A stretch of DNA of 64,000 nt from a virus (IMGVR_UViG_3300005805_000044); one strand, 5' to 3'; positions 26,580-59,031 are shown, counted from the stretch's first letter. The notes: generated by a model not told the origin, from the letters alone. Numbers and translations are program-made.

Positions 26580-26593
26580 CTTAATTTAATTTT

Positions 26594-41649: not shown

Positions 41650-42438
41650 TTATTTTGGCTTTATTTTATTTTGAGCATCTTGAGCCGCCTTAGTCAAAAT
41701 TGTAGCTCTGGTATTAATTTTAGCAATAGCATCTTTGAATGATGATTCTGGTCCAATTAACGCATCCATAAAACTATTGTCTTCTTTAATCATTTGTTTC
41801 ACTATTTCCTTATACTTTTGTTTTTTAGCTTCATCCATAGGTTTATTTTTGGTTAATATATTATAAATACTCTTGACCACACCAGTTTTTACACCTGGAT
41901 AATTAGTGGTAAAATTTTCAAAATCGTTGTTTGCTAAATCTTGTCTCAATGTGCTAGCACTGATACTTTGTCCATTTTTATCATCAGTTCTACCTTGATA
42001 CAATACTGGAGCATCATCAGTCATTTCTACAGACGATACATTTTCTGGTGCTGTTCGGCCGTCCTTTGTTGGTTTGGTTTTATAACGTTGAATAGCAGCA
42101 GAAAATATCTTGCTACGTTTTGCATCTTCTGGACTCTTTGAACTTGCAGCCAAAGCAATCACTTCATTACTGTCTTTTGGCAAACCAAATACGTATCCAA
42201 AAGCAGCATTCATTGGACTGTCATCATCTACTGGAACCACTTTGATCTTTGGGTTGGTAGGCAATAGGTTCCAAATAGCCACACTTTGTTGACGATTGAT
42301 GCCATCACGTTCACTGGGTCCAACCATCACAATTACTTTGCCTACATCAGCCCTACTGGCAAATTTGTTAGCTAACCCCAAATGTCCAGCATGTGGTGGT
42401 TTAAATCCGCCTGGTAGTAGCACCGTTACTTTGTTCAT
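41650..42438 (-). CDS. HIGH-superfamily nucleotidyltransferase (cytidylyltransferase/NMNAT-like)
   Basis: PGGFKPPHAGH and ISASTLR motifs. Confidence 0.8.
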   Translation of the reverse strand: MNKVTVLLPGGFKPPHAGHLGLANKFASRADVGKVIVMVGPSERDGINRQQSVAIWNLLPTNPKIKVVPVDDDSPMNAAFGYVFGLPKDSNEVIALAASSKSPEDAKRSKIFSAAIQRYKTKPTKDGRTAPENVSSVEMTDDAPVLYQGRTDDKNGQSISASTLRQDLANNDFENFTTNYPGVKTGVVKSIYNILTKNKPMDEAKKQKYKEIVKQMIKEDNSFMDALIGPESSFKDAIAKINTRATILTKAAQDAQNKIKPK

Positions 42439-42453
42439 ATCAATAAATATATG

Positions 42454-42491
42454 AAAAGAAAAAAACCCCTCGCTTTTTCAGCGAAGGGTTT
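42454..42491 (-). terminator. intrinsic terminator after tail tube gene
   Basis: AAACCCTTCGC/GCGAGGGGTTT stem plus long T-run on the - strand. Confidence 0.8.
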
Positions 42492-42513
42492 AAAGGACAT
42501 AAATGAACAAGAA

Positions 42514-43005
42514 TTAGTATTGAAGGATACAGTAGTCAGGTTGAATGGTCAAGTTGATTTTCATTGCTTCACCATCATTGCTCCAGTCTAGTGAGTTAAA
42601 TGATGCTTCAGTGATGAATGCTCCCTTGAGGGTCCATTCTTCAACCTTATCACCAACTGGACCTAGAACGTTGACGGTCAAGTCTTTCTTGTAAAAGTCT
42701 TGATAACCATCACGACCAGTTACAGATTCGTGGTGTAGACGAACCCATTCCATTACAGCTTGAGCACCACTTGGAACAATTGGATCATATAGTTCCATTG
42801 TGATTGTTCCCCAAATGCTCTTGCCTTTGTAGAAGGTTCTGATGTTGATGTGATCAAGTTCTTTTGCAGCTTGAGTTATCTTTGGACGGTCTGTCTTCTT
42901 GATAATAAATGAAGGAATGCCGTCACAATACAAGATAAAGCGATTTTGAACCTTTGGCTCAAACGCTGTGTAAAATATTTCCGATGGATTTAGTAGTTCT
43001 GCCAT
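42514..43005 (-). CDS. gp19: tail tube protein (T4 gp19-like)
   Basis: EPKVQNRF, W.TIT..LYDP, EW, YKKD, EEWTLKGAF, LDW, DY. Confidence 0.88.
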   Translation of the reverse strand: MAELLNPSEIFYTAFEPKVQNRFILYCDGIPSFIIKKTDRPKITQAAKELDHINIRTFYKGKSIWGTITMELYDPIVPSGAQAVMEWVRLHHESVTGRDGYQDFYKKDLTVNVLGPVGDKVEEWTLKGAFITEASFNSLDWSNDGEAMKINLTIQPDYCILQY

Positions 43006-43066
43006 AATATTATTCCTTTATGTCCTAGATATAAATATGATTAAGATTAAATATTTATGATTTTTT

Positions 43067-44227
43067 TTATATTTTGTTGAGCTCTTTGTCTGTGAGTTTT
43101 GTTATATTAGTTTTGAGTTTATTAACAAAACCACTACTTCTCAAAAGTTTAAAAACAATATTTTCTATACTAAATTCTCCTCCTGAGCTAAGGCCAGTTT
43201 CACGCATATCATACAAACGTTTGACCATAGCTTTGAGTTTTTCAAGATTTTGATCATCTACAGCTTTATTGATCTTTGATACTAAATCTTTATATTTTGT
43301 TTTTACAGTTTCTGTGTCAATTTGTGGAGCTTCATATTTTGGTTTTTTTATCCATTTATTGTTTAATACACTGTAGGATGCTTGACTTCTGGTTTCATGT
43401 CCAACATCTTGAATATAAACTTCTACTGGATGGTTGTTTATTTTTATATCATGTTTGTCATTCCATTGACTTTTATATCCATCTACCAGTTTTTGAACCA
43501 GATCTTTATTTTCGTCAATTTTTGAAAAATCAATTGCTATATGTAAATCTATATCGCTAGTTGGTGTCCAGTTATAACCGGCGGTGCTTCCAAGGAACAA
43601 TATGTCTTCAATTGGAGCAGTAAGATCTGTGCTTTTGTAGAATGTTGTAGCAATATTTAACAAACGATCCAATACGTCTGGTTTAATGGCGTCGCCGTCC
43701 CATATGTCAGGGCAAAGTATACTGTTGTAAATTCTAAATGATTGTTTTACCCCAAGTAATTCCTTTAACTTGTTGATGGTATCTGTTGCGTCGGTATGTA
43801 ATATTCCAATACCACCAGCATTTACAAATTCCTCAATATTGTCTTTTCGGTCATCAATTAATATTGCGTTTGGACTTGCAAATTTAGCCTTATCTTCTCT
43901 GTGTGGAACCAGATTCTGTTTAAATGTAACGTTGTGATCTGTTAACCATTTTTCTTTGCCTTGTTTACACTCTGGATCCGTTGCATGACTTAATATTTCA
44001 GTGGGAAACTCTTTGATAAAATTATAGAGTATTTTACCATCACTCATCCACGGCATTGTAGCATAAAAATTTGGACTATGACTTTTTACTAAATTATAAC
44101 GTTGTTCTTTGCCATATTCAGCTTCATATGTTTCAACTGGAACACCGAATGTTTTTTCAAACTGTTTTTCCCAGTCCGTTAAAACGCCGTCCATGTCAAC
44201 GTAAATTTTGTATTTTGATTCTACCAT
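43067..44227 (-). CDS. HAD 5'(3')-nucleotidase fused to a Pol-beta-type nucleotidyltransferase
   Basis: IYVDMDGVL...K...LIDDR; then LGS.AGYNW..SDIDLH...VEVYIQD. Confidence 0.8.
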   Translation of the reverse strand: MVESKYKIYVDMDGVLTDWEKQFEKTFGVPVETYEAEYGKEQRYNLVKSHSPNFYATMPWMSDGKILYNFIKEFPTEILSHATDPECKQGKEKWLTDHNVTFKQNLVPHREDKAKFASPNAILIDDRKDNIEEFVNAGGIGILHTDATDTINKLKELLGVKQSFRIYNSILCPDIWDGDAIKPDVLDRLLNIATTFYKSTDLTAPIEDILFLGSTAGYNWTPTSDIDLHIAIDFSKIDENKDLVQKLVDGYKSQWNDKHDIKINNHPVEVYIQDVGHETRSQASYSVLNNKWIKKPKYEAPQIDTETVKTKYKDLVSKINKAVDDQNLEKLKAMVKRLYDMRETGLSSGGEFSIENIVFKLLRSSGFVNKLKTNITKLTDKELNKI

Positions 44228-44241
44228 TTATAATAAATATT

Positions 44242-44577
44242 TTACTTTTTAAGAAATAAACGGTATATTACTCTTCCAAGTTCAGCGCTAAACTTTCTGA
44301 CTTTATACTCTGGTAAATCCCAAAAGAAAGCATGTGTAACCTCTTCGATTAATACATTTAACTTTCTACGAGATAGTAAATGATCACCAATTTCAATACG
44401 TGAGTTTTTTAAATTGGGATTATAACAATATCCATCAGCGGTCGTCAAAGACTTAAAATGTATCGGAATAACTTGTTTTAAGTAAGTTTCTATGCTGAGC
44501 TGCTTACTTTTATCTAATTTTAAGCTGCTGCGCTTGATAGTGCTGCGCTTTTTGCGCTTATTTAATTTTGCATTCAT
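44242..44577 (-). CDS. small zincin-like protein (EExxH variant)
   Basis: ADGYC, IEI, LIEEVTHAFFWD..E. Confidence 0.5.
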   Translation of the reverse strand: MNAKLNKRKKRSTIKRSSLKLDKSKQLSIETYLKQVIPIHFKSLTTADGYCYNPNLKNSRIEIGDHLLSRRKLNVLIEEVTHAFFWDLPEYKVRKFSAELGRVIYRLFLKK

Positions 44578-44615
44578 AATTTATAAGCATATAAACAGCA
44601 AGGCTTGCTGCGCTT
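44493..44615. repeat. TGCTGCGCTT direct-repeat cluster
   Basis: perfect copies at 44526, 44541, 44606; partial copies at 44493 and 44552. Confidence 0.8.
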
Positions 44616-44640
44616 ATACTTTATATATTCAGAATGTCAA
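44613..44640 (-). promoter_or_regulatory. sigma70-type promoter overlapping the first repeat
   Basis: TTGACA-16 nt-TATAAG. Confidence 0.55.
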
Positions 44641-44806
44641 CAAATTTTAAACTTATACCAACAGAAATATCCAATTTTATTTTATCAGATTGATATATTT
44701 TGCTGAATAAATCTAAAAAGTCCTCTTCAATTAAAGGCTTTTCTGACGGCTCAATAAGCGAGTCGTAGTATACAGAATCATCATACGGCTCAAATCTAAC
44801 TTTCAC
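44621..44806 (-). CDS. hypothetical protein
   Basis: GTG start 5 nt after TATTTAT. Confidence 0.45.
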   Translation of the reverse strand: MKVRFEPYDDSVYYDSLIEPSEKPLIEEDFLDLFSKIYQSDKIKLDISVGISLKFVDILNI

Positions 44807-44824
44807 ATAATATAAATATGTGAA

Positions 44825-45106
44825 TTATTTAGCAGCAGGCTTAAAAGTTCCGTCTTTTATATTAAGAGTTCCATCGCCATATTTTTGACTCAAGTCTTGA
44901 AGAATCTGTTGTTCTTCTTTTTGAATTTCAGACCACGATTCAAAAATCTTTTTACGAATTTCTTCAACATCTTGCAACTGTTGAGTCAAATCGACTTTGG
45001 CAAGTTCATTTTGACCAAGTTCAAATATTTTTTGTTGATATTTGCCTTGAAGTTGCGCAATTTGTTGCATTTCTGCATCTGTAAATTTTATAACATTATC
45101 ACTCAT
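44825..45106 (-). CDS. small coiled-coil protein
   Basis: Gln/Glu-rich helix ending KYGDGTLNIKDGTF. Confidence 0.65.
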   Translation of the reverse strand: MSDNVIKFTDAEMQQIAQLQGKYQQKIFELGQNELAKVDLTQQLQDVEEIRKKIFESWSEIQKEEQQILQDLSQKYGDGTLNIKDGTFKPAAK

Positions 45107-45142
45107 ATACAATATATACTGTCGATCCAACTATTGCCTTTT

Positions 45143-46693
45143 TTATATTGTTTTATCAATTATAGTTTGTAGCTTATCGACATCTTTACGTTCAGCATTA
45201 ATCATATAATAAAAATCATATGATTCTTTATTAAATAACTTTTTAAACAATCCAACTTTGCGATCAACATTGATGTATACTTTGTTGTCTTTAATTTTTT
45301 CAACATAATACACATCAGGTCTACCAATTGGAGTAATGTGAATAGAAATAGAATTTTCATCAACCAACCATGGCCAATAATCTGGCAAATCTATACAAAG
45401 ACTATTTGATCTACCACGAACAAATACACCGTGTTCTGGACCTTCCAACGAAGCATGAACCAATCGTTTGGTCTCGTCTTTTTGGTGATCAATTACGAAT
45501 GATTTTGTAGTAGCGGCAAACGACCCATTAACCTCTAAATTAAATTGTGGATCATCCTTGTTTATACCAACTCTACTACCCGTTACATATAAAACATTTG
45601 TTCCGTCTACTTTACTTACAACCCTAAATGGAGCTGATGAACCACTTGCAATAATTTGACGTTCAACGAGGATGTCACGTCCTACTGTTATATCATTCTC
45701 AGCAACAACATTGTTATTAGCATGAATATCAAGAGAAGTAAGCAAATCACTTACTACGACAGTTCCAGCCATTAAATTGCCAACATCAGCATTACTAGCA
45801 CTTAAACTACCACTCAGAACCAATCCAGAACTTTTATCTTCCCACACTCCGTCAACAGCATTGTAAACCAAAAATGCACCGTTTGATGGAAAAGCACTAC
45901 TACTAATGTTGCTAATTTCATCAATTGTGACTGGTTGTTTAAGATCAACAAATATACCACCATTAGATGAGTCAACAACGGTTATATATCCAATTTTAGC
46001 AACATCTCTAGGAGCAGATGGTTTGATATTTGTAAATGAACCAGAAACAGATGGACTTAAATATAAAACATCACCAGCACTAAAACCTGTGTTGGTATTA
46101 AGGCCTTCAAGATACCCAGTTATTAATATATTACCAACAGATCCATTGAGTATAGAAACATCAGATACAACACCTAAAACATCACTGGTAACAGTTGAAC
46201 CCGGCGTATGTATCTTTGATACAGCAAGATCTACTACCAATTCTCCAGACAAGTTACTTCCAATTACTTGAACTACTTGACCCCTCAACAAACTAAATCC
46301 AGAACCATTTTGAACCTTAACTAATGAAGGATTAGGACCATCACTGCCATTTAAAGCGTAAGAAGCAGTAAGTGAAGTAAGAGCATAACTACTTGTCCCC
46401 AATAATGAACCAGTAAATGATCCACTAATACGGTCAGTTACAAACAAACTACCTGTTATAACCGCGCTACCACTGAAGGGAAACCCCGAACCGCCAGTGC
46501 CACCATTAGAAGCATAAGAAGCACTTAATGCATATGATGCGGATGTAATAACTAAAGATGATGAAGGAATTACAACTGGTAATTTATTCTCGTCAAAAGC
46601 TAACAAAGAAGCGGTCTGTGGACGAATAATTTGTTCAACAAATGAACTACCACTTCTTCTACTTAATAATAAATCCTTTTCGAGAAAAATCAT
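45143..46693 (-). CDS. tail fibre/spike-like virion protein
   Basis: SASYA/SGS repeats, RVGIN..DPQFNLEVNG, C-terminal KSFVIDH...LEGPE.GV..RG domain. Confidence 0.7.
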   Translation of the reverse strand: MIFLEKDLLLSRRSGSSFVEQIIRPQTASLLAFDENKLPVVIPSSSLVITSASYALSASYASNGGTGGSGFPFSGSAVITGSLFVTDRISGSFTGSLLGTSSYALTSLTASYALNGSDGPNPSLVKVQNGSGFSLLRGQVVQVIGSNLSGELVVDLAVSKIHTPGSTVTSDVLGVVSDVSILNGSVGNILITGYLEGLNTNTGFSAGDVLYLSPSVSGSFTNIKPSAPRDVAKIGYITVVDSSNGGIFVDLKQPVTIDEISNISSSAFPSNGAFLVYNAVDGVWEDKSSGLVLSGSLSASNADVGNLMAGTVVVSDLLTSLDIHANNNVVAENDITVGRDILVERQIIASGSSAPFRVVSKVDGTNVLYVTGSRVGINKDDPQFNLEVNGSFAATTKSFVIDHQKDETKRLVHASLEGPEHGVFVRGRSNSLCIDLPDYWPWLVDENSISIHITPIGRPDVYYVEKIKDNKVYINVDRKVGLFKKLFNKESYDFYYMINAERKDVDKLQTIIDKTI

Positions 46694-46736
46694 ACTTTAG
46701 TCTATTATAAATATGGACAATGATCAATATATTCAA

Positions 46737-48173
46737 TTAAAATGTTTCATCGACCATTGCTATTGGCACTCTTCTCCATTCTTTGTTTGAATATATGTAA
46801 AAATAGTTACCATCGTAGCTCATCCATCCATCTTCACCATAGTCAGTAGATTTGTATGGAACTTGATAATAATACTTCTCTGGAAACCTTTGAAATACTC
46901 TAAAAGCAGTGTTAATTGGTCGAGTTTGGGTGGTATATACAGGATCACCATTACAGTCATATCCACTAATATATGCACCTGAATTTGGGTCAAAATCAAA
47001 TGATGCTATAGCTCTACGTGTCCAACCAAGTGGTGATCTGTATACATAAAAATAATCACTATCATATGACAACCATCCATTTTGACCATAATCGGATGTA
47101 GAAGTTGGCGTAGGATGAAATAATGTTTTTTCAACTTTATTTTTTGCAGTAACCCCAAGATCATTCGGTATAGTTTTTTGTTCAGATACGTATTTGACAC
47201 CAATATTTTTTAAATAAGCATATGGATTTGTTGATTTTGAAGCAGACTCAACATCAAACATCTCAACCGCATTAACAACTTTATCATCAACAACAACTTT
47301 TCTGACAGTAAATGATTTTTGAGTTGTTGATTTAACACCATCAATTGTTTTTGGTAGAAGATAAGCATTTACCACCAGATTAAAAGTAGTTTTTACATTT
47401 CGATCTTCACCGCTGCCTAATTCAACCGTATTAGTATAATCGTCTACTTTTGTTCTAAATCTGAAATCACCCACACCCCAATAATCGTGTGTAGAAAAAT
47501 TAATTTTTTCCAATAATTTATTATTTTGATCAACATAGTCTGTCCACAAAATACATTCATATGTTATGGTGACGTGATCAGGTAAGGTTACATTGTAAAT
47601 TTGTTTGGTTGGTTTGTTTTTAAATGGATTATTTGAGTTAAGTATATTAAATTTATCATACTTATTTTTTTGATCAAACTGGGCAACTACTTGATATGAC
47701 AAATATCTATTTAAAGTCATTAAATCTTTATTGTTACTAACTGTTGCTCGTTTGATCAAAATAGCAGGCAACAATATCTTACCTTGATTGTCACGTAAAT
47801 ACCCATCACGTTTTACCGCTTTCCAACGTTCTGGGCTAGCATAAAGAACAGGAACAGTAACCAAAGAACCGTTATCCATCACAGATAACTGTATTCTTTG
47901 AGTCATATGATTTATTATTGTAGTATCAACATCAATTAACGTGACTGAAAAATTCTCAGTCTTGTCCATATCACGTCTAATTGCATTTTCTTTATGATAT
48001 GGACCCACCAATGGAATAGGAGTTTGTTGGTCTGTAACAAATCCAGTATCCTCATTTTGAACAAAAGGCTTGATAACGTCAGACAGATTTGAATTGTTCT
48101 GTTTGACGTTTGGAGCAGGGTTAATACCAAGTCCATCTTGACTTTTACCAGTTGGATTGCCTTTCCATGCCAT
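46737..48173 (-). CDS. gp15-like tail terminator/sheath stabiliser with duplicated C-terminal module
   Basis: VPVLYASPERW, LPAI, ITYE, FNLVVNAYLLP; follows the neck genes. Confidence 0.6.
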   Translation of the reverse strand: MAWKGNPTGKSQDGLGINPAPNVKQNNSNLSDVIKPFVQNEDTGFVTDQQTPIPLVGPYHKENAIRRDMDKTENFSVTLIDVDTTIINHMTQRIQLSVMDNGSLVTVPVLYASPERWKAVKRDGYLRDNQGKILLPAILIKRATVSNNKDLMTLNRYLSYQVVAQFDQKNKYDKFNILNSNNPFKNKPTKQIYNVTLPDHVTITYECILWTDYVDQNNKLLEKINFSTHDYWGVGDFRFRTKVDDYTNTVELGSGEDRNVKTTFNLVVNAYLLPKTIDGVKSTTQKSFTVRKVVVDDKVVNAVEMFDVESASKSTNPYAYLKNIGVKYVSEQKTIPNDLGVTAKNKVEKTLFHPTPTSTSDYGQNGWLSYDSDYFYVYRSPLGWTRRAIASFDFDPNSGAYISGYDCNGDPVYTTQTRPINTAFRVFQRFPEKYYYQVPYKSTDYGEDGWMSYDGNYFYIYSNKEWRRVPIAMVDETF

Positions 48174-48176
48174 AAA

Positions 48177-48749
48177 TTATGTCTGCCTTTCTACAACATT
48201 AAGCTTACTTAATCTGCTGTAATGAGTATTACAGATAAAGCTCCAAGACTTGTCTGGATGACCACCTAAAAATTGTTCTTGAACCACATTATCAATTTCG
48301 TAAAAACGTTCATTGTATAACAAAATATCCCCAATTTCTGGGAAAAATCCAGTAATAATACAGTCACGTTCACGAAACTTATAGACTACAGACTGATTAC
48401 GATCTGGACCAAATCCTTGATTATCATCACCCGTAATATCTTCACGTTGAATCAACGCGGTCATGTTAATAGCCGGATAAAATGCTTTGCCAGTTTCCGA
48501 TGTAGATTCACCGTATATATTGACCCTTGTTTCACTAACTGCAACTTTAAACAACTGGACAACACACTCAATAATGTCGCCCAATAATTCAGCATTTACA
48601 GACCCAAGAAGGTTCATATCTCTTTGAGAGAAATATCTACCCGGCAAATAATTGGTTCCATAGATACCAATATCTTTACGACCATTTGTCCAATATTGGG
48701 GAAATGCTGGATTTTGTTGAGGCCATTGCGGTGTAATTGGTGCTGCCAT
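48177..48749 (-). CDS. gp14: neck / head-closure protein (gp14-like)
   Basis: NIYGE, PEIGDILLY...YEI; follows gp13-like gene. Confidence 0.65.
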   Translation of the reverse strand: MAAPITPQWPQQNPAFPQYWTNGRKDIGIYGTNYLPGRYFSQRDMNLLGSVNAELLGDIIECVVQLFKVAVSETRVNIYGESTSETGKAFYPAINMTALIQREDITGDDNQGFGPDRNQSVVYKFRERDCIITGFFPEIGDILLYNERFYEIDNVVQEQFLGGHPDKSWSFICNTHYSRLSKLNVVERQT

Positions 48750-48752
48750 ATT

Positions 48753-49988
48753 TTATCCTATGTAGATATGTAATGGAACCTTACCAAGCATTTTTATCAT
48801 CGCATCAGATTCTTTGTCTTTATTTTCAAGTTGATTTACTCTCAAACTTTTATCAAGCATATCTCTTAATTTCTCTAAAAGAGTATCCTTCTCTTCTTTA
48901 GCTTCGGATCTTAATTCGGCACCGTCTAATGTTACTTCACCGCCTGGAATTGGAACTGTGCTATATTTTTGAAGAATACGGCCCAACGTTTCTTTACAAA
49001 GAGCTAAAAAATATTTTTTGATCCACTGTTTACCGGCTTGGTTTATCTTACAATATTGACATAACTGATACGGAGCATCACTTGGGTCACTAATATACTC
49101 ATATCGTGACCCACTAAAAAAGTTAGTAATGTTCTTATCACTCTCAATATAGTAGTCAATATAAATTCTAAAATCATGAGTTGGAATTGGAAATATTCTC
49201 AACATATTATCGCCCGTGATTTGAAAACCATACGCACTTTTACGCACCATATCATTAAATTCAATAGCTTGAACACGCTCTAAATCTTCAAATATCGGTG
49301 TCATCAAAAACTGAGTTGCCGGACTATACGCACTAAATCCCATTTCTTGTAGAACGTTACTGTAACTCATACCAGTCATACTAAACGGATCATATACACG
49401 AGAAATTGCAGGTGGTCTGAAGTGAAATACTCTTCGAACTTCAATACGTGATCCAGTCAAGTGTTCGATATCACTGCCAATGATTTGATTCAAATCAAAC
49501 ACTTGATGACTGTCTTGAGGTCCACCAAAACTTGCAGACCCCGTTGCTAAAAATGAGGCACGTTTAAGTTCTGTTTCGCCACCAACCAACGCTTCACTTC
49601 CATATTGTTTACTTAATTGAACAACAAACGGTAGGCCAGTTCCTTTTACACTCAATCCCAATAAATTAGGATATTGATCTTGTGGTAAGCCTTGAACATT
49701 GATCAAATTATTAACAATATTGAACTCATTTACAACACGATTATACTCCAAAACAGATTCTTCAAAACACGCATAAAAGTTGGCATCAATCATTTCAATA
49801 TCAACGATTGGATATCCTAATCTTTTAGCGGCCCACATCGCACTGCTGCTACAATCATTTTCAAACGTGGTCTCATCAGAATCACAACTCGTCTCGTCCA
49901 GATAGTAACCAAATGGAACGGATGCAGAATTAACTGTTGATCCACTGCCAGGCCACCTTACTCTATCTTGGTCTAAATTAGCACTCAT
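48753..49988 (-). CDS. gp13: neck / head-tail adaptor (gp13-like)
   Basis: KRLGYPIVDIE, WIKKY.LAL.KE.LG....KY..VPIPGGEVTLDG. Confidence 0.85.
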   Translation of the reverse strand: MSANLDQDRVRWPGSGSTVNSASVPFGYYLDETSCDSDETTFENDCSSSAMWAAKRLGYPIVDIEMIDANFYACFEESVLEYNRVVNEFNIVNNLINVQGLPQDQYPNLLGLSVKGTGLPFVVQLSKQYGSEALVGGETELKRASFLATGSASFGGPQDSHQVFDLNQIIGSDIEHLTGSRIEVRRVFHFRPPAISRVYDPFSMTGMSYSNVLQEMGFSAYSPATQFLMTPIFEDLERVQAIEFNDMVRKSAYGFQITGDNMLRIFPIPTHDFRIYIDYYIESDKNITNFFSGSRYEYISDPSDAPYQLCQYCKINQAGKQWIKKYFLALCKETLGRILQKYSTVPIPGGEVTLDGAELRSEAKEEKDTLLEKLRDMLDKSLRVNQLENKDKESDAMIKMLGKVPLHIYIG

Positions 49989-50033
49989 TAAATATAAATA
50001 TCGGAATATTCGATATTAGTGCTAAAATCTAAT

Positions 50034-50573
50034 TTATACCAAATTATTACCTTCAAACTTTCGTGGACCACTCAAATCCACAATTTTATACTTAATTGGC
50101 ATATCTTTTATAGTAGCATAAACAGCCTTTATGTTCTTGGGACTATCATCAATAAAGAAGATGTCATTATAACCTTCATTATTAATTTTATCTTTAATCC
50201 AATTAGCTTTAGCCATAGGATCACTGGTTCCAACCGTAACAATGGGTATATTTACCTTAAAATACCTCTGTAAGACGTTTTGTATGTGAGGTTGACTCTC
50301 TGGACCCCTCGCAGTCAAAACGACGGCAAGACGACCGTCTGCCCCCGCATTGACTATTTTATAAAATCTCTTAGCTACGTTGCGAATAACCACCGGATCT
50401 ATGACAGAACTGAACTCAGAGAAATCAAACTTGTCACCCGGCTGTTGTGTATAAACCGCATACTGAGCAGGCGTTAATTTAACCACAGACCCATCTGATT
50501 TGGTCAATATTACTTTGCCACCCGTTTCAAAAAGTGTGTCGTCAAAATCAAATACTCTTAGTTTCTTGGTCAT
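50034..50573 (-). CDS. HAD-superfamily phosphatase (PNKP/RNA-repair-like)
   Basis: VFDFDDTL, LTAR, K, FIDDS.KN. Confidence 0.8.
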   Translation of the reverse strand: MTKKLRVFDFDDTLFETGGKVILTKSDGSVVKLTPAQYAVYTQQPGDKFDFSEFSSVIDPVVIRNVAKRFYKIVNAGADGRLAVVLTARGPESQPHIQNVLQRYFKVNIPIVTVGTSDPMAKANWIKDKINNEGYNDIFFIDDSPKNIKAVYATIKDMPIKYKIVDLSGPRKFEGNNLV

Positions 50574-50701
50574 AGGAATGATTGCGCAATCAACTTATAG
50601 TCAGAAACATATGGTTTTGGTTGTGACTTTTTAACAGCATCCTCCTTCAGTTTTTTTGCCTTGAGAACCTTCTGAAGAGTGTTTTTTACTTTCTCATTCA
50701 T
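50570..50701 (-). CDS. 43-aa basic peptide (not in ORF track)
   Basis: MNEKVKNTLQKVLKAKKLKEDAVKKSQPKPYVSDYKLIAQSFL; overlaps both neighbours and fills the gap exactly. Confidence 0.6.
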   Translation of the reverse strand: MNEKVKNTLQKVLKAKKLKEDAVKKSQPKPYVSDYKLIAQSFL

Positions 50702-50963
50702 ACATTTTTGTAATTTTGACCACAAGTTTTCCAGAGCCTTTTATGACTCTGTGATACGTTTCTTTAGGTATAAATATTGAACCCTCCATCAAACACGGAA
50801 GATTATTATCCAATTGAACCTCCCAACCACCGTTATTCTCCACAACCTCAACCAAACGATTTTCTTTGTCCAAATGCCACTCTAATTCATGACTATCTAT
50901 ATCGGAATTAAATTCACGAATATACTGATTATTCCCCAAACTTGTCTCTGTATATGGTCTCAT
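50694..50963 (-). CDS. small cupin-fold protein
   Basis: WHLDKE.R...W..QLD...IFIPKETYHRVIKG. Confidence 0.7.
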   Translation of the reverse strand: MRPYTETSLGNNQYIREFNSDIDSHELEWHLDKENRLVEVVENNGGWEVQLDNNLPCLMEGSIFIPKETYHRVIKGSGKLVVKITKMYE

Positions 50964-51961
50964 ACTCTAAACGAATTTATATAAGTATCAGTATCACGTT
51001 TTAATTCGTCTTCTGGAACATTATCTAAATTATCACCATACTTCTGTAACCAATATTGTTTGATCTTACCCAACATTGGTCCTGGCTTTATATTAAAGTT
51101 TTGCATAATCCAGTCACCACCATATTTAGATTTCACCGGAGTAAATGATTCAATTTCTTTTTGTTTATCCAACAACATCTGATACTTGTCTGGAAATAAC
51201 CGTTTCAAGAAATAGTCTGGGTCACTAATCTGTTTATGTTTATTCAAACCAATCAATGACTTTCTAATATAATCAGCACTAGGTCTACCAGATCTTACAC
51301 GTTTTCTGTCACTATGATTCATAGTCTGACCCTTATAATCATCGCTATCAAACATAGGACTCCTACTGATGAACTTAATTACATCATCATTGTTCTGTAT
51401 ACGGTCATAATCATCCAATACATCACCATAACCAAGTATCTTCAAACCATCTTTTAGATTCTTACTAATTAGTATATCGTGATGTCTACCACTCTTATCT
51501 ACATAAATCTTTTGAAAGCCTGTGGTAGCATACTTGTATCCATTTTGTCTAGCCATTACCCCAAGTATTCCACTCAAATCTCCAAGTGCTAGATACATTC
51601 TTTGTGCTTCAAAGTCTTCGTCATTATCTGAATGTATAAAATCTATATGAACATTCTTGCCTGTATTACTTTTATACAATACACTATAGATATTACCGTT
51701 ACGACTATAATCTATTACTTTATCCCCCAATTGTGATTTTAGAGTATTGGCTACATCACCATTACCAGATACAACCACATCAATATCGCCGTGGTCTGCT
51801 TTAGATGGTAATGCTTTACTCAATTCAAACTTATTGAATTTGTTATTTAACAAACTTTTAAGCTCGTCAAAGATACTATTCATTTCAGCAGTAGACACTC
51901 TACTGGCTCTAGTGCCAAAGAGTTTACCACCTTCAACTAATAGATCCATCAACTTTATCAT
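50960..51961 (-). CDS. Pol-beta-type nucleotidyltransferase with CCA-enzyme-like C-terminal tail
   Basis: KADHGDIDVVV, VHIDFI, C-terminal YGGDWIM..NIKPGPMLGKIK; N-terminal MIKLMDLLVE leader. Confidence 0.7.
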   Translation of the reverse strand: MIKLMDLLVEGGKLFGTRASRVSTAEMNSIFDELKSLLNNKFNKFELSKALPSKADHGDIDVVVSGNGDVANTLKSQLGDKVIDYSRNGNIYSVLYKSNTGKNVHIDFIHSDNDEDFEAQRMYLALGDLSGILGVMARQNGYKYATTGFQKIYVDKSGRHHDILISKNLKDGLKILGYGDVLDDYDRIQNNDDVIKFISRSPMFDSDDYKGQTMNHSDRKRVRSGRPSADYIRKSLIGLNKHKQISDPDYFLKRLFPDKYQMLLDKQKEIESFTPVKSKYGGDWIMQNFNIKPGPMLGKIKQYWLQKYGDNLDNVPEDELKRDTDTYINSFRV

Positions 51962-52491
51962 AGGTTTATAAAGTATTTGCCGTTGGGGCCACTATATTTG
52001 AATCGCGTAATTGGTAAAGATATATTTAGATTATCTTTGATATGTGGAAAGCTACCCTTCTTCACATAAGCTAACGTCATATGAGGATTGTAGCTTGGAT
52101 AACTATCAGTATTTGGATAAACGTCACATCTACGTCTCAATTCGGTCAATATAGGACTCTTTTCAACTTCAAACTTGACCACATCAAATTTATCATTCTC
52201 AAACAAATTGAGTGCTTTTAATACAACATTAAATGGCTTTACACCTTGAAGGATTCTAGCAACATCGGGTCTACCAATATCTGGTTCAAATCCATACTTG
52301 AGAGTCACATGAGGTTCTTCATCATAACCATATGTAGGATCATTAGGATCAGTATATAGTATTTGCGGTGGTATTGCGGTTCTACCAAGTCTAATTACAT
52401 GTGGACCATAAGTAGGACTTACATGTGCCATTAAACAACCTTTTTCAACGTGTCTATTTTCTACGAGTAACATATTTTCTAATAATTTCAC
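51958..52491 (-). CDS. 2H phosphoesterase (T4 57B/Acb1-like)
   Basis: two HxT motifs: EPHVTLKYG and YNPHMTLAY. Confidence 0.8.
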   Translation of the reverse strand: MKLLENMLLVENRHVEKGCLMAHVSPTYGPHVIRLGRTAIPPQILYTDPNDPTYGYDEEPHVTLKYGFEPDIGRPDVARILQGVKPFNVVLKALNLFENDKFDVVKFEVEKSPILTELRRRCDVYPNTDSYPSYNPHMTLAYVKKGSFPHIKDNLNISLPITRFKYSGPNGKYFINL

Positions 52492-53725
52492 GAATCAAAT
52501 GTTCTTTCTTTACCAATTGGTCCAAAGGCACACCTCTATACTTTTGTCTTAGTTGCGCAATTGGCATACCATATTGTTTTTCAGCTTGAGCAATCAGATT
52601 GTATCTATCTTGTTTCTCTTTTTCTAAAGATGCCAATTTACGAGCAACTACAGTAGCAACAGTATTCTTAATGTTATCATTATAATACTTCTCACCCGAT
52701 ACCAAAAGATCATTCAATATTTTAATTTCTACTTCTAACCCATTTACTTCTTTTTCTAGATTATCTTTTTCAGCAGGCGTAAGTTTCGCTCCTGTTGTAT
52801 GAAGTTTTCCTCTCTTTTCAATAAACTCTTGAGTCTTATCATCAATTACTTTTTCCAAACTAGGTTGTTGTTGTATTTTCTCAACTCCCCAAGCAGGATA
52901 ATCAAATTCACTACCAATCGGTGTAGTGGACAAATTACTATAAGTTACCTTTATTGATACATTATTACCTTTAACAGCTGTAACATCCGCTTTTATACCC
53001 AGGCCTGGCATTTCTACTTTGTCACCCACTTTGAATTCAACATCTGCTTTATCTGCAACAGAAGGTTTAGGTGGAGGAGTTTCTTTCTTAGGTTCTTCTT
53101 TGTCATACAGTTCATTGTATGACCTTATTTTGCTACCAATTTCATACAAACACTCAGTTGGATTATATCCATTAAACTCTATGACTTTTTCATATTGATC
53201 TTTGTATGGAATTACCTTGTCTTTATTATAATCCCAGAATGTTACAATGATAGCTTTACCACTTGGTATTGTGCTTTCAATTTGTAAATCCAAATTTTCA
53301 GGTGGTTTACCATCTGTATTGTCCACCTCAAAGATTCTACCTTTCATGATAGGATCCGAATATTGACCCATTCTACCCAACCCCTTTAGAATATTTTCCA
53401 AATCCAAATGACCACCACCATTACTACTAGCCTTTAATCGTTTGATACCTTTTTGAGCCCAATAATCCAATTCTTGTTCTCTCTTATTAGAATCATACTT
53501 TATTTCTGGAGCGTCCTCCAATTCTTTGATTTCTTTTAATACATCACTATCATCTGAGTAAAATTCTTTCTTGTTGTCACTATATCCAAATATTGACTTT
53601 TTACCACTATCGTCTTTATAAACAAAAAAAGCACATCTGTTAGCTGGAGAAGTGTAGCTATACAACTTTCTCTTGTAACTAACAGTGTCGGGATTTTCCA
53701 CCAAAATATCAATTAGTTTAACCAT
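52454..53725 (-). CDS. hypothetical late protein with KOW/SH3-like segment
   Basis: MVKLIDILVE leader; FKVGDKVE...V; C-terminal LIREIIRKY. Confidence 0.6.
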   Translation of the reverse strand: MVKLIDILVENPDTVSYKRKLYSYTSPANRCAFFVYKDDSGKKSIFGYSDNKKEFYSDDSDVLKEIKELEDAPEIKYDSNKREQELDYWAQKGIKRLKASSNGGGHLDLENILKGLGRMGQYSDPIMKGRIFEVDNTDGKPPENLDLQIESTIPSGKAIIVTFWDYNKDKVIPYKDQYEKVIEFNGYNPTECLYEIGSKIRSYNELYDKEEPKKETPPPKPSVADKADVEFKVGDKVEMPGLGIKADVTAVKGNNVSIKVTYSNLSTTPIGSEFDYPAWGVEKIQQQPSLEKVIDDKTQEFIEKRGKLHTTGAKLTPAEKDNLEKEVNGLEVEIKILNDLLVSGEKYYNDNIKNTVATVVARKLASLEKEKQDRYNLIAQAEKQYGMPIAQLRQKYRGVPLDQLVKKEHLIREIIRKYVTRRK

Positions 53726-53730
53726 AAATT

Positions 53731-54333
53731 TTACCAGTATTTTCCTTTACCCTTGTTTCCTAAACTACGAATACGATGACTACGACAACTCCAATAACCA
53801 GCTGTAGTTCTATCTTTCTTTTGACTACATCTGTGACGTGCAGCAAAACTCTTACGACGAGCCTTGTTACCAGCTCTACTTCTCATATTAGGATCACCAA
53901 AAGTTACCTTCTTTACATTGCCGTTTTTTGATTTGACATACACAGCATACTTCTTTGGACCGCCTGGAGTTCTGAATGGTCTATTGAGATGAACAGTGCG
54001 ACCTCTATGTTTCAACTCCATGATCAAATCCTCAACAACCTCAATAGGCGCATCAAGATACACTTCACGACCTTCAAACATCTCTTTTTTACCCAAATCA
54101 CTCTCGACTAATTCGGCATCTGAATCACACAGTTCGATCTTGTTTTCAAAATATAATTTACGAACTTCTTCCAATAATTCAAAATATGATTCACTGTAGG
54201 TTCTGAAGATGGTCTCTGATAAAGGTAATTGTTTAGTTAAATGATACTTAAGATTGTCACTGACAGACACATCTTCAGTCAATGACATCCCACACAATTC
54301 ATCACTTTCAATAAGATCGTTTAATTTAATCAT
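53731..54333 (-). CDS. hypothetical protein: acidic N-half, very basic C-domain (DUF6321/DUF5754-like)
   Basis: MIKLNDLIE leader; KKYAVYV...VTFGD...RRKSFAARHRC...AGYWSC. Confidence 0.65.
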   Translation of the reverse strand: MIKLNDLIESDELCGMSLTEDVSVSDNLKYHLTKQLPLSETIFRTYSESYFELLEEVRKLYFENKIELCDSDAELVESDLGKKEMFEGREVYLDAPIEVVEDLIMELKHRGRTVHLNRPFRTPGGPKKYAVYVKSKNGNVKKVTFGDPNMRSRAGNKARRKSFAARHRCSQKKDRTTAGYWSCRSHRIRSLGNKGKGKYW

Positions 54334-54344
54334 AGATATAAATA

Positions 54345-55274
54345 TTATTTACCATACTTGTTCGTAGCCTTTAATTCACTAATTAGAATTTTTTCTGGGT
54401 CATTCAAATTCTTCTCCAATTCAATAAATAATTCATCTAAAGTATACTTTTTATCGGTTCTTTGTTGAATCTGTCGTAAACGGTCAATTGTATCAACAAC
54501 ACTATCCAATGTATCTTTGTATCGGTTGAATACAGGCAGTTCAATGTGTTTACTGAATTCCATCGACTTTGGAGCAATACCTTTAAGTATATTAATAAAG
54601 AATGCGATTACATGTTCTACTAACGAGAATATCGCACCAGCAATTGGGTTTGTAGCAGCTAAGAATCGTAACACCATGAAACATATCAAGAATATCAATA
54701 TGCCAGTCACACCTATAGTCACGAATCTTTTTAGTCCATACATTACACCACCAAGACCCATCCAACTATTCACTTCATCAACAGTAACTTGCAATCTATC
54801 AGCCTTTTTCGCCACTTGAGAAGCCTGTTCTTCCAAACCTTTAATCTGAGACTCATATACATCTTCTATTTCTTTTTGTCGAGTTTGAAGATCCAATATT
54901 TCAGTATCTTTTTCTTTTAACAGTTTTACACCTTTATCTTTTTCTTTATCAATTTCACTGTTTAAAAGATCAGTTATTTGTTTTATTTTGTTCAATTCGT
55001 CAATATTTGGATTACCAGCAATACTCAATATTCTAGAATTATAATCCAAAGCAGTCTTGACTTGAACTGGAGGATTGGTCACAGACTTCAATGAATACTC
55101 TGTGCCAGCAGCCAAAGTAGAAACCTCTTGTAACTTTTCTTCATCGTTTTTTGCCTTTTCTACGCGGGTTACTGCAAGTGCATCTTTGGTCTTTTGAACC
55201 TTATCTGCATTTGGTGTTTTGCAACCGCCGAACAACAACAAAGAAGCCAAAAATAGCATTAATGTTTTTTGCAT
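54345..55274 (-). CDS. lipoprotein with coiled coil and downstream TM segment (spanin-like)
   Basis: lipobox LFGG-C18, about 150-aa helical region, TM FVTIGVTGILIFLICFMVL. Confidence 0.6.
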   Translation of the reverse strand: MQKTLMLFLASLLLFGGCKTPNADKVQKTKDALAVTRVEKAKNDEEKLQEVSTLAAGTEYSLKSVTNPPVQVKTALDYNSRILSIAGNPNIDELNKIKQITDLLNSEIDKEKDKGVKLLKEKDTEILDLQTRQKEIEDVYESQIKGLEEQASQVAKKADRLQVTVDEVNSWMGLGGVMYGLKRFVTIGVTGILIFLICFMVLRFLAATNPIAGAIFSLVEHVIAFFINILKGIAPKSMEFSKHIELPVFNRYKDTLDSVVDTIDRLRQIQQRTDKKYTLDELFIELEKNLNDPEKILISELKATNKYGK

Positions 55275-55335: not shown

Positions 55336-55341
55336 GATAAT

Positions 55342-57948: not shown

Positions 57949-59031
57949 TTACTTCTTGATTCCTGCGAGTTTTTGGAATCTTGAAGCCATTACATCAGCT
58001 TGAGGTTCTACAATCGTAGACTCAGGCTTTGTGCTGGATACTGGTTTGCTTGCCAAACCTTCGGTGATAGTTGTGACAGTCGCATTTGACTTTTTCTTGG
58101 CGACTGATCCACCGGCATTAAATGATTCGGCCAAAACGGTGTATGCCAATTTGATTTCACGCAATGTCTTGGTGAGATCAAATGTGTTGATGACCTTCAA
58201 CTTTTGGTCTTCGGTCAAATTCTTACCCTTGAATAGCTTATTGGTATAAAGCAATTTAGCATTCAAAAGATTGGTTTCTTCAAGAACACCCTTTAAATAC
58301 TTAACGGTGTTTTGATGTTCCTTCAATTGATTCTTCAATGCTTCATTTTCTTCATTAATAGCTACCAAAGCTTCTGCCATTTCTTCAGCAGTTACTTCTT
58401 CCTCTTCCATTGGAGAAGGAACTTGTCCAGCAACTGGTGCTACTGGAGCTGGTGCTGCTGCGGGTGCTGCAGCTGGAGCAGCTGCGGCTGGTGCTGGTGC
58501 TGCTGCTGTTGGATCAACAGCAGCTGGAGCTGGAGCCGGAACTTGTCCTTCTTCTTCCAATTCAGCAAGAAGTTCATCAAGATCAACAGTTTCTGCTGAA
58601 TCGTCGTCTGCAACTTCTTCTTCTTCAGCAACAACTTCTTTTTGTTCTTCTTTGTCGCCTTCATGTTCCAACTCAGCAAGAATTTCATCCAACTCTTCGC
58701 TGGTCAACTCTTCACCCTCTTCAAGTTTTGCATCGAATTCTTGAGATCCAGGTGGAACAGTGTTTTTCTTGGCTGCGGTTGATGGTTGAACAACGTGTTG
58801 ACTGCTTACAGTGTTACCGTCGTCTTTACCAATACCTGAAGAAGAAAGTTTTTCTTCAATCTTACCTTCTTCAGTTTTTTCTGTGTCTGCTGCTTCTTCC
58901 TTGAGTTTTTCTGCGAACATTTCTTTCATGCTCTTTGCGAAGTTTTCCTCAAGAAAAGTTTTTGCATTAGCAATTGCAGTTTCACGAACTGCTTTTGCGT
59001 CTGCGATGCTTTCTTTTAATAGATCGCTCAT
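57949..59031 (-). CDS. gp22: prohead core scaffolding protein (gp22-like)
   Basis: directly upstream of the capsid gene; acidic Glu-rich coiled coil, PA-rich linker, C-terminal RFQKLAGI; AGGAAAGG SD. Confidence 0.8.
   Translation of the reverse strand: MSDLLKESIADAKAVRETAIANAKTFLEENFAKSMKEMFAEKLKEEAADTEKTEEGKIEEKLSSSGIGKDDGNTVSSQHVVQPSTAAKKNTVPPGSQEFDAKLEEGEELTSEELDEILAELEHEGDKEEQKEVVAEEEEVADDDSAETVDLDELLAELEEEGQVPAPAPAAVDPTAAAPAPAAAAPAAAPAAAPAPVAPVAGQVPSPMEEEEVTAEEMAEALVAINEENEALKNQLKEHQNTVKYLKGVLEETNLLNAKLLYTNKLFKGKNLTEDQKLKVINTFDLTKTLREIKLAYTVLAESFNAGGSVAKKKSNATVTTITEGLASKPVSSTKPESTIVEPQADVMASRFQKLAGIKK

What the first reader, a model, noticed from the sequence alone, without database searches (positions are those of the whole stretch)
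41650..52491. Candidate system: late-expressed nucleotide/RNA-end-processing kit embedded in the virion module
Seen: between tail, neck and capsid genes lie a HIGH NTase (41650), a HAD + Pol-beta NTase fusion (43067), a HAD phosphatase (50034), a cupin (50694), a Pol-beta NTase with CCA-like tail (50960) and a 2H phosphoesterase (51958). Each is directly behind a TATTTAT element or in the coupled operon starting at 54338, and several carry the leader or helix motifs. Known: 2H (cyclic phosphate opening), HAD (3' phosphate removal) and nucleotidyltransferase (end re-addition) are the activities of RNA/tRNA end-healing systems; 2H enzymes also destroy CBASS signals. Inference: enzymes made late, packed into heads and injected with the DNA to repair cleaved tRNA or neutralise nucleotide signals before phage genes are expressed.
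Basis: partly seen in the sequence, partly recalled or inferred. Interest (0 to 1): 0.82.

Follow-up and report, generated by a model that had tools for sequence, protein, structure and literature searches.

The report
Capsid-tagged phage RNA-repair enzymes
A freshwater T4-type giant phage puts a ten-residue tag, like the one T4 uses to load proteins into its head, on a polymerase-beta-like enzyme and its neighbours, so part of an RNA-end repair kit is probably injected ready-made, but most of the six listed enzymes lack the tag.

Summary
All six ORFs exist. Five domain calls hold, from firm (2H, PolX-like NTase) to motif level (HIGH NTase, HAD). The 'cupin' is untested. The TATTTAT element and the coupled operon are real.

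The six genes are not one system. They are three separate late-type insertions in the virion module of a far-T4-like phage.

The leader is the real signal. MIKLxDLLxE heads g200, g423 and the NTase in the operon and g181 in the prohead-core cluster. On the 2H enzyme it is degenerate. In relatives it heads at least 38 unrelated families, including CCA-adding enzymes, an ADP-ribosyltransferase-like protein and a lysozyme. It sits in front of the NTase family's native Met-Gly-Gly start and ends in the L/I-x-E site of the T4-type prohead protease, which the window encodes.

The best reading is a T4-style capsid-targeting tag. The NTase has a polymerase-X core. Its relatives are fused to CCA-adding enzymes or sit beside RtcB, which favours RNA or tRNA 3'-end repair.

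The HIGH NTase, the HAD-NTase fusion, the HAD and the 'cupin' carry no tag, so nothing supports their packaging. No virion data exist.

The scan found this tag before on other DNA (e1-5410949, e1-5757320 and others).

The parts
54338..54345 (-). ATATTTAT upstream element, 4 nt before the g200 start; head of the coupled operon
53731..54333 (-). g200: leader MIKLNDLIE plus a basic protein (mature pI 9.4); C-terminal domain matches phrog_7595; the most widespread tagged family (30 loci)
52454..53725 (-). g423: leader MVKLIDILVE plus a protein with no detectable family
51958..52491 (-). 2H phosphoesterase with two H-x-T motifs. GTG start gives a degenerate leader (V)KLLENMLLVE; the alternative ATG start gives MLLVE
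50960..51961 (-). NT333: leader MIKLMDLLVE, then a polymerase-X-like core (residues 10-191; catalytic D59, D61, D107), then a helical C-terminal domain whose last ~57 residues weakly resemble the CCA-adding-enzyme tail
50694..50963 (-). 89-aa cupin-like protein, untagged, fold not tested. Lies between the 2H-side genes and the gp13 neck gene in 33 fetched loci
50570..50725 (-). 51-aa basic ORF, overlapping both neighbours; status uncertain
50034..50573 (-). HAD179: untagged HAD phosphatase (DFDDT), related to PNK-type phosphatases
43067..44227 (-). Untagged fusion of an NT5C-type HAD (residues 1-160) and a Pol-beta NTase domain (168-386; GS...SDID). Has its own ATATTTAT at 44233-44240
41650..42438 (-). 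Untagged HIGH-motif nucleotidyltransferase between the tail tube and baseplate hub genes. Has its own ATATTTAT at 42443-42450, after the terminator-like site at 42463-42491
60152..60697 (-). g181: leader MIKLKHLVE on an acidic coiled-coil-like protein in the prohead-core gene cluster
61442..62041 (-). T4 gp21-type prohead protease, the presumed enzyme that removes the leader
   Evidence: phrog_207, 7e-54
57949..59118 (-). Acidic scaffold-like protein. An internal Met gives MSDLLKE, which resembles the end of the leader
56173..57903 (-). gp23-type major capsid protein, one boundary of the variable MCP-to-neck slot
48753..49988 (-). gp13-like neck protein, the other boundary of the variable slot

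Best explanation
The stretch is not one system. It holds three separate late-type insertions in the virion module of a far-T4-like freshwater giant phage:
(i) the coupled operon 54333 to 50034: g200, g423, 2H phosphoesterase, polymerase-X-like NTase, an 89-aa cupin-like protein, a 51-aa ORF and a HAD phosphatase;
(ii) an NT5C-HAD plus Pol-beta-NTase fusion;
(iii) a HIGH-motif NTase.

In (i), g200, g423 and the NTase begin with a 9-10-residue peptide, MIKLxDLLxE. The 2H enzyme has a decayed form of it. The same peptide heads g181 in the prohead-core cluster and at least 38 unrelated protein families in related phages.

Shown:
- The peptide is an add-on in front of the NTase family's native N-terminus.
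- It is conserved at the protein level, not the DNA level.
- It ends in the L/I-x-E site of T4-type prohead proteases.
- The phage encodes such a protease.

Inferred:
- The peptide is a capsid-targeting sequence. Tagged proteins are built into the prohead core, trimmed after the Glu, stay in the filled head and leave with the DNA.
- The tagged NTase rebuilds damaged RNA or tRNA 3' ends. This rests on its relatives being fused to CCA-adding enzymes and lying beside RtcB.
- It would act after a 2H enzyme and a phosphatase clear 2',3'-cyclic or 3' phosphates.
- The untagged HAD, cupin-like protein, HAD-NTase fusion and HIGH NTase are made late and act in the cytoplasm. Nothing shows that they are packaged.
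For: Leader in the window:
- It occurs on four consecutive genes plus g181.
- A PSSM trained only on NTase homologues from other genomes was run over 1400 candidate starts. It ranks g200 (17.4 bits), g423 (15.0) and g181 (8.8) directly behind the NTase itself; the next score is 3.3.
- Codons differ at synonymous sites.

Leader as an add-on:
- Most distant NTase homologues start MGG[NK]ALK and align from query residue 11.
- The leader has low pLDDT and lies outside the fold.

Leader in relatives:
- 213 of 2439 ORFs start M[IVL][KR][LI], against 0.46% at internal Met.
- It heads 38 unrelated families, with Glu at position 10 in 28 and at position 9 in 8.
- L016 has nine tagged genes in a row, including a CCA-adding enzyme.
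- Tagged cargo includes ART-PolyVal-like and lysozyme domains.

T4 precedent:
- The window encodes a gp21-type protease.
- In T4 the first 10 residues of IPIII suffice for loading, and gp21 cuts after L/I-X-E (PMC9026906 sect. 2.5-2.6; PMC8442874 sect. 7).

NTase function:
- Polymerase X core.
- Fusions with a CCA-adding enzyme, an NT5C HAD and a DSP phosphatase.
- A 4-nt overlap with RtcB in L097.
- Tail-like C-terminus: 1miv Z 6.5, 3h37 5.1, 9kma 4.7.
- RlaP is a precedent for an NTase in tRNA repair (PMC12776372).
Against: - No virion proteome or N-terminal sequence exists for this phage or any relative.
- The leader shares a pattern with the T4 CTS (MKTYQEFIAE) but not its sequence.
- The 2H leader is degenerate here and missing in many relatives, so packaging is not needed for 2H function.
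- The NTase core is most like DNA polymerases (Z 12 against about 8 for RNA NTases), so its substrate could be DNA.
- The CCA-tail resemblance is below the level at which helical matches can be trusted.
- Late timing rests only on an upstream element shared with structural genes.
- The HAD that would complete an end-healing pathway is untagged.
Confidence: 0.55

Rival explanations
1. All six enzymes form one kit that is made late, packed into heads and injected to heal tRNA or destroy nucleotide signals.
For: All six genes lie in the virion module, behind TATTTAT elements or in the coupled operon. Their activities match RNA-repair kits (PMC7824862).
Against: Four of the six lack the leader. 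Co-occurrence with 2H among the fetched loci is patchy: HAD179 in 15, the HAD-NTase fusion in 12 and the HIGH NTase in 4, against 2H in 89. These counts are partly limited by how far the flanks reach. The HIGH NTase family acts on small-molecule phosphates in all characterised members (own knowledge).
Confidence: 0.08
2. The shared leader is not a capsid address. It could be a translation-start or expression element of late genes, an oligomerisation or membrane helix, or a degradation signal, with all the enzymes acting in the infected cell's cytoplasm.
For: No proteomic evidence exists. All tagged genes are late-type and A/T-rich at the start. The 2H works without the tag in many relatives.
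Against: Conservation is at the amino-acid level, with synonymous codon differences. The length is fixed at 9-10 residues and ends in [LI]-x-E. Most structural late genes lack it. One tagged gene sits among the prohead-core genes. The cargo types (ART-like, lysozyme) are typical of injected proteins (PMC7824862).
Confidence: 0.2
3. The tagged NTase is a minimal family X DNA polymerase. Together with a 3'-phosphatase-type HAD, it repairs nicks or gaps in the injected or replicating phage DNA rather than RNA.
For: The best structural and profile matches are Pol beta, lambda and mu, Thermus PolX and ASFV PolX. PHROG labels the family 'DNA polymerase'. Giant-virus PolX proteins appear among the BFVD matches.
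Against: The family is fused to CCA-adding enzymes in two arrangements, and a member overlaps RtcB. The gene lies next to a 2H enzyme, which acts on RNA-type cyclic phosphates. There is a weak CCA-tail resemblance. No 8-kDa lyase domain is present.
Confidence: 0.2
4. The 2H enzyme is an Acb1-type nuclease that destroys cyclic-oligonucleotide defence signals, not an RNA-end phosphodiesterase.
For: The family profile hits Acb1 structure 9q2g at E 2.6e-5 and 7t26 at 0.006. Many homologues carry a precomputed PF23474 hit. The window protein scores 22 bits on PF23474.
Against: LigT-type structures score the same (2fyh and 1vdx, about 3e-5). The PF23474 score is below its cut-off of 27. Conserved neighbours are NTases and CCA-adding enzymes.
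Confidence: 0.25

Closest known systems
Capsid targeting sequence (CTS) of phage T4 internal proteins IPI-III and the propeptides of Alt and gp24, removed by prohead protease gp21 (PMC9026906, PMC3012670, PMC8442874)
   Same: A 9-10-residue N-terminal peptide is shared by otherwise unrelated proteins. It ends in L/I-x-Glu. A gp21-type protease is encoded. The tagged genes form a variable cassette. The cargo includes an ADP-ribosyltransferase-like protein in relatives.
   Different: The sequence differs (MIKLKxLLxE against MKTYQEFIAE). Far more families are tagged (at least 38). The cargo is mostly enzymes, including RNA- or tRNA-end enzymes. Loading and cleavage have not been shown.
Phage RNA-repair kits: T4 Pnkp/Rnl, and the 2H, HAD, RlaP, CCA-adding enzyme and RNA ligase sets of jumbo phages (PMC7824862 sect. 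3.4.9)
   Same: The same enzyme classes occur together: a 2H phosphoesterase, HAD phosphatases and Pol-beta-superfamily NTases.
   Different: No ligase or kinase lies in this stretch. The NTase belongs to a different, PolX-like family. Some components carry a capsid tag. The genes sit inside the virion module.
[quoted passage not shown]
   Same: Both are Pol-beta-superfamily NTases found next to an RNA repair ligase (RtcB in L097). RlaP adds 1-2 NMP to damaged RNA 3' ends so that repaired tRNA works again. That is the role proposed here.
   Different: The window protein has no PF10127 hit. Its core is polymerase-X-like, with finger, palm and thumb parts, and it has its own helical C-terminal domain.
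Minimal family X DNA polymerases such as ASFV Pol X
   Same: 157 of 176 residues of ASFV PolX superpose (Z 10.8). The catalytic Asp triad is kept, and there is no 8-kDa lyase domain.
   Different: It has an extra 140-residue C-terminal domain, a capsid tag, and gene links to tRNA enzymes rather than DNA base-excision repair.
Acb1 anti-CBASS 2H phosphodiesterase, and LigT/ThpR RNA 2',3'-cyclic phosphodiesterases
   Same: The 2H fold signature with two H-x-T motifs; a small phage-encoded enzyme.
   Different: It is equally distant from both groups, so the substrate cannot be assigned.

Membership tests
T4-type capsid-targeting sequence / internal-protein system | A short N-terminal peptide shared by otherwise unrelated proteins | tested here: met
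   Four clear cases in the window and one degenerate (2H), plus 38 families in relatives; no similarity beyond residue 10
T4-type capsid-targeting sequence / internal-protein system | The peptide ends in the prohead-protease site L/I-x-Glu | tested here: met
   Positions 8-10 read [LI]-x-E in 28 of 38 families and positions 7-9 in 8 of 38. T4 motif from PMC9026906
T4-type capsid-targeting sequence / internal-protein system | A gp21-type (S77) prohead protease is encoded | tested here: met
   61442-62041, phrog_207 at 7e-54
T4-type capsid-targeting sequence / internal-protein system | Tagged proteins are present in virions with the peptide removed | not testable with these tools
   Needs virion mass spectrometry; no cultured relative is known to carry the tag
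T4-type capsid-targeting sequence / internal-protein system | The peptide alone suffices to load a foreign protein | not testable with these tools
   Needs a reporter fusion during infection
2H phosphoesterase superfamily | Two H-x-T/S motifs and a family profile above its cut-off | tested here: met
   HVT and HMT motifs; H61, T63, H137 and T139 are invariant; PF13563 scores 49.3 bits against a cut-off of 27
Acb1 (PF23474) | Family profile above its curated cut-off | tested here: inconclusive
   22 bits against a cut-off of 27. The profile hits Acb1 and LigT-type structures equally
Family X DNA polymerase | Palm with three catalytic Asp, plus a thumb | tested here: met
   D59, D61 and D107 nearly invariant; Z 12.2 over 170 residues to Pol beta and 10.8 to ASFV PolX; Foldseek E 1.7e-6
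Family X DNA polymerase | 8-kDa dRP-lyase or DNA-binding domain of canonical members | tested here: not met
   The aligned region begins at Pol beta residue 102, and the model has no domain before it. ASFV PolX lacks this domain too
Class II CCA-adding enzyme | PolyA_pol head domain (PF01743) | tested here: not met
   No Pfam hit for the window protein; the core is PolX-like instead
Class II CCA-adding enzyme | C-terminal tail domain | tested here: inconclusive
   Profile E 0.005-0.08 to the C-termini of 3wfo, 3h37 and 4x4w. VIA top hit is the 1miv tail, Z 6.5 over 56 residues. Foldseek is not significant
RlaP (PF10127) | Family profile match | tested here: not met
   No Pfam hit. A homologue does lie next to an RNA ligase, RtcB
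HAD phosphatase superfamily | Motif I, DxDx[TV], at the N-terminus | tested here: met
   DFDDT in HAD179 and DMDGV in the fusion; phrog_2643 at 2e-30 and phrog_415 at 5e-8
HIGH-motif nucleotidyltransferases (NMNAT, PPAT, cytidylyltransferase) | HxGH and ISxSxxR motifs, and a family profile above its cut-off | tested here: inconclusive
   Both motifs are present and conserved. Pfam scores 18.5 against a cut-off of 21. Only the HIGH segment matches solved NMNAT and PPAT structures, at E about 0.03
Cupin | Double-stranded beta-helix fold with metal-binding motifs | not tested
Conserved H30, D32, E34 and H71 are compatible with a cupin

The most novel reading that the evidence does not exclude
The tagged NTase would be a new kind of tRNA repair polymerase. 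It has a polymerase-X core that fills in the 3' strand of a clipped acceptor stem, or another damaged RNA 3' end, using the opposite strand as template. It has a CCA-enzyme-like tail that docks on the tRNA elbow. It is delivered ready-made from the capsid, in relatives alongside 2H and CCA-adding enzymes, so that tRNAs cut by host defences are restored before any phage gene is expressed.
Probability: 0.25. Interest if true: 0.85.

Novelty: new variant of a known kind. Interest (0 to 1): 0.6.

Why it matters
T4 is known to inject small inhibitor proteins and the Alt enzyme. Phage RNA-repair kits are known as enzymes made after infection.

A portable ten-residue address that puts RNA- or tRNA-end enzymes, ADP-ribosyltransferase-like proteins and lysozymes into the head would join these two themes. 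Counter-defence would then be active from the first second of infection, before transcription.

It would also give a simple sequence rule for predicting virion cargo in uncultured T4-like phages. And it points to an uncharacterised PolX-like NTase family, linked to CCA-adding enzymes and RtcB, that can be assayed directly.

Tried and rejected
- The window's own assembly is not held. The nearest record, G001, is a 37.7-kb fragment covering only part of the stretch, so a whole-genome tag census was not possible.
- Megablast against cultured phages found nothing. HAD179 has no tblastn match in phage records.
- Single-sequence PDB searches for the NTase, the fusion, the HIGH NTase and HAD179 gave only chance hits.
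- The protein atlas gave nothing for g423, and only unnamed viral clusters for the NTase.
- g423 and g181 have no PHROG hit; their Pfam hits are weak, sub-threshold and probably chance (PP2C_C 0.0079, COG3_N 0.0023). g200 has no Pfam hit and only phrog_7595, of unknown function.
- The 'cupin' had no hit in any library or in a family profile against the PDB, so the call stays untested.
- RlaP membership of the NTase was rejected, because there is no PF10127 hit.
- An NAD-salvage role for the HIGH NTase was considered. Only the HIGH segment resembles NMNAT, and no Nampt-type partner was seen among the genes I scanned. This is unresolved.
- A single six-gene system was rejected on synteny.
- The neighbourhood of the fusion's NTase domain in Maribacter phage Molly gave no functional clue.
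- ClpA hits to that domain were judged spurious.
- Literature: no paper holds both 'capsid targeting sequence' and 'CCA-adding'.

Full report
CONTEXT. The window comes from a T4-related myophage. It has a gp23-type capsid protein at 56173-57903 (Pfam 7.8e-75). The nearest cultured relatives are Microcystis phage Mel-JY01 and Flavobacterium phage immuto, at about 51% identity. It also has a gp21-type prohead protease at 61442-62041, a tail tube, a baseplate hub and a gp13-like neck protein. Genes from 9729 to 55274 run on the minus strand. Replication genes (NrdA, DnaB, UvsX, gp32-like) occupy 20451-27499. The window's own assembly is not held. Earlier notes of this scan describe the genome as a freshwater giant phage with a tRNA array.

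OBSERVATION. All six ORFs exist at the stated coordinates.
- The 2H call is firm: PF13563 at 7e-13 and two H-x-T motifs.
- The 333-aa NTase is firm. A 114-sequence alignment shows nearly invariant K54, G58, D59, D61 and D107. The AF2 model has pLDDT 94.3. Residues 10-191 superpose on family X polymerases: Pol beta Z 12.2 over 170 residues, ASFV PolX Z 10.8 over 157 of 176 residues, Foldseek E 1.7e-6, and Thermus PolX profile E 1.6e-4.
- The 386-aa protein is an NT5C-type HAD (phrog_2643, 2e-30) fused to a domain with an invariant GS...SDID. That domain matches phrog_36119 at 4e-43 and has a weak GLD-2 hit at E 0.007. It occurs on its own in Lak megaphages and in Maribacter and Synechococcus phages.
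- HAD179 has DFDDT and matches a PNK-type PHROG at 5e-8.
- The HIGH NTase has GGFKPPHAGH and ISASTLR, but only its first ~40 residues match NMNAT or PPAT models, below family cut-offs.
- The 'cupin' has no support beyond conserved His, Asp, Glu and His residues.

UPSTREAM ELEMENT. ATATTTAT is over-represented, 24 occurrences against 9.9 expected. TATTTAT lies within 45 nt of 16 of 51 minus-strand gene starts. Thirteen of those genes lie in the virion module (28-61 kb), including tube, neck, fibre-like and scaffold-like genes, g181, g200, the HIGH NTase and the fusion. Among the replication genes only NrdA has it. The element ends only 2-25 nt before the start codon. It marks virion-module genes, but I cannot tell whether it is a promoter or part of the translation start.

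OPERON. The genes from g200 to HAD179 are joined by gaps of 5, -38, -4, -4, -32 and -4 nt. Strong terminator-like sites follow only the capsid and tube genes.

THE LEADER. Four consecutive genes in the operon, plus g181 between the protease and the scaffold-like gene, begin as follows:
- g200: MIKLNDLIE
- g423: MVKLIDILVE
- 2H: (V)KLLENMLLVE
- NTase: MIKLMDLLVE
- g181: MIKLKHLVE

I trained a scoring matrix only on the N-termini of NTase homologues from other genomes. Among 1400 possible starts in the window it ranks g200 (17.4 bits), g423 (15.0) and g181 (8.8) first after the NTase itself. The next score is 3.3. The codons differ at synonymous positions, so selection acts on the peptide.

A full-library search found 860 NTase homologues. 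Most distant ones begin MGG[NK]ALK and align from query residue 11. The ten residues are therefore an add-on that replaces the native initiator Met. In the model they form a low-confidence helix outside the fold.

RELATIVES. In 92 fetched loci, 213 of 2439 ORFs (8.7%) start M[IVL][KR][LI], against 0.46% at internal Met. The tagged ORFs fall into 38 families with no similarity beyond the leader. The consensus is M-I-K-L-K-x-L-[LI]-x-E, with Glu at position 10 in 28 families and at position 9 in 8.

Tagged families include class II CCA-adding enzymes with an HD domain (7 members), an ART-PolyVal-like protein, a phage lysozyme, a PGDYG protein and a second 2H-type protein.
- L016 has nine tagged genes in a row between the neck and sheath genes, among them 2H and a CCA-adding enzyme.
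- L013 has five in a row, then a tagged CCA-adding enzyme.

The content of the slot between the capsid and neck genes varies even between close relatives. In L010 the capsid protein is 97% identical, but extra genes lie between 2H and the NTase. The recurrent order is capsid, g200, 2H, a tagged protein of about 330 aa, the cupin-like protein, then gp13.

COMPARISON WITH T4. T4 loads IPI-III, Alt and other proteins into the prohead core through an N-terminal capsid targeting sequence, MKTYQEFIAE. The first ten residues of IPIII suffice. gp21 then cuts after L/I-X-E, and the proteins stay in the head and are ejected with the DNA (PMC8442874 sect. 7; PMC9026906 sect. 2.3, 2.5, 2.6; PMC3012670). 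The leader here has the same length and the same terminal motif. It also has an acidic or polar residue at position 6 and hydrophobic residues at 7-8, as T4 does. The phage encodes the protease. This is the best available explanation, but loading and cleavage are inferred, not shown.

WHAT THE CARGO DOES: THE NTASE. Family links point to RNA.
- P0158 is a CCA-adding enzyme (PolyA_pol + HD) with this domain at its C-terminus. It lies in a cellular-looking contig beside TGT, a tRNA synthetase and FtsH.
- P0268 has the reverse order.
- P0134 fuses the domain to an NT5C HAD, and P0232 to a DSP phosphatase.
- The leaderless homologue P0190 overlaps RtcB by 4 nt.
- The last ~57 residues give the tail of the B. 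stearothermophilus CCA-adding enzyme as the top of 48,161 chains (Z 6.5), with two other CCA enzymes at 5.1 and 4.7. Profile hits to the same region have E 0.005-0.08. Foldseek is not significant, and such Z values are not decisive for helical domains.

RlaP is a different Pol-beta NTase found beside RNA ligases. It adds one or two nucleotides to damaged RNA 3' ends and is needed to restore heavily damaged tRNA (PMC12776372). 2H, HAD, RlaP and CCA-adding enzymes are the recognised parts of jumbo-phage RNA repair (PMC7824862 sect. 3.4.9). I therefore favour RNA or tRNA 3'-end rebuilding, at about 55-60%. DNA gap filling is the main rival, because the core is polymerase-X-like.

WHAT THE CARGO DOES: THE 2H ENZYME. 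It is equally near Acb1 (9q2g, 2.6e-5) and LigT-type enzymes (2fyh and 1vdx, about 3e-5). Its substrate is open. Its leader runs from full (L016, L078, L087), through degenerate (this phage, GTG start), to absent in many relatives.

THE UNTAGGED ENZYMES. HAD179, the cupin-like protein, the fusion and the HIGH NTase start directly with their folds.
- Mel-JY01 has sheath next to tube and tube next to hub. Here the fusion (with g61 and g111) and the HIGH NTase occupy those junctions, so they are separate insertions.
- In immuto, a large NadR-like protein and an NT5C gene are adjacent, so a HIGH-NTase and NT5C pairing recurs. Only the HIGH segment is alignable with the window's HIGH NTase.
- The fusion joins a phosphatase to an end-adding enzyme, which fits a heal-then-extend role. 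That is inference.
- Nothing indicates that these four are packaged.

VERDICT. Follow-up agents reported the same tag on other DNA (e1-5410949, e1-5684951, e1-5704876, e1-5757320, e1-5758604, e1-5818592, e1-5378618). I saw those notes only after searches had established the leader here.

I found no paper that links capsid targeting sequences with CCA-adding enzymes. The finding is a new variant of two known things, the T4 CTS system and phage RNA-repair kits. It is not a new category.

Noticed in passing
window 60738-61436 (-): A class I SAM methyltransferase (Methyltransf_24, 2.5e-8) sits inside the head-morphogenesis cluster, between the prohead protease and the tagged g181.
   Followed up: partly
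window 55324-56115 (+): A Mom-like DNA modification protein (phrog_1384, 3e-44) lies on the opposite strand between the capsid gene and the tagged operon. It keeps this position in relatives (26 loci).
   Followed up: partly
window 19338-60712, minus strand: The TATTTAT element ends only 2-25 nt (mostly 4-6 nt) before start codons. If it is a -10-like promoter element, many late mRNAs would be leaderless or nearly so.
   Followed up: partly
window 57949-59118 and 56173-57903 (-): An internal start of the scaffold-like protein (MSDLLKE) and the capsid protein N-terminus (MDVKSLL; MDIKNIL in Mel-JY01) both resemble parts of the leader. The tag may mimic a natural core-binding N-terminus.
   Followed up: no
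window 43067-45130 (-): In Mel-JY01 a tail sheath gene lies between the g101 homologue and the tube gene. Here that place holds g61, g111 and the HAD-NTase fusion. I did not find a sheath gene among the genes I scanned.
   Followed up: partly
L097:8001-10225: A leaderless homologue of the NTase overlaps an RtcB RNA ligase gene by 4 nt, in an unrelated mobile-element-like contig.
   Followed up: partly
L098:8001-11003: A 1000-aa protein joins a complete CCA-adding enzyme (PolyA_pol + HD) to the PolX-like NTase domain. The contig carries TGT, a tRNA synthetase, FtsH and Fpg, so it is probably cellular.
   Followed up: partly
L016:7273-14710: Nine consecutive genes carry the MIKLKSLLxE leader, between the gp13 neck gene and the sheath gene of a distant relative. 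They include 2H, a 680-aa CCA-adding enzyme and an ART-like protein.
   Followed up: yes
L003:6245-8164 (Mel-JY01): The 639-aa 'cytidylyltransferase-like' protein of Microcystis phage Mel-JY01 begins MGKLINILLSE, which is leader-like. In that cultured phage a HIGH NTase may be tagged.
   Followed up: no
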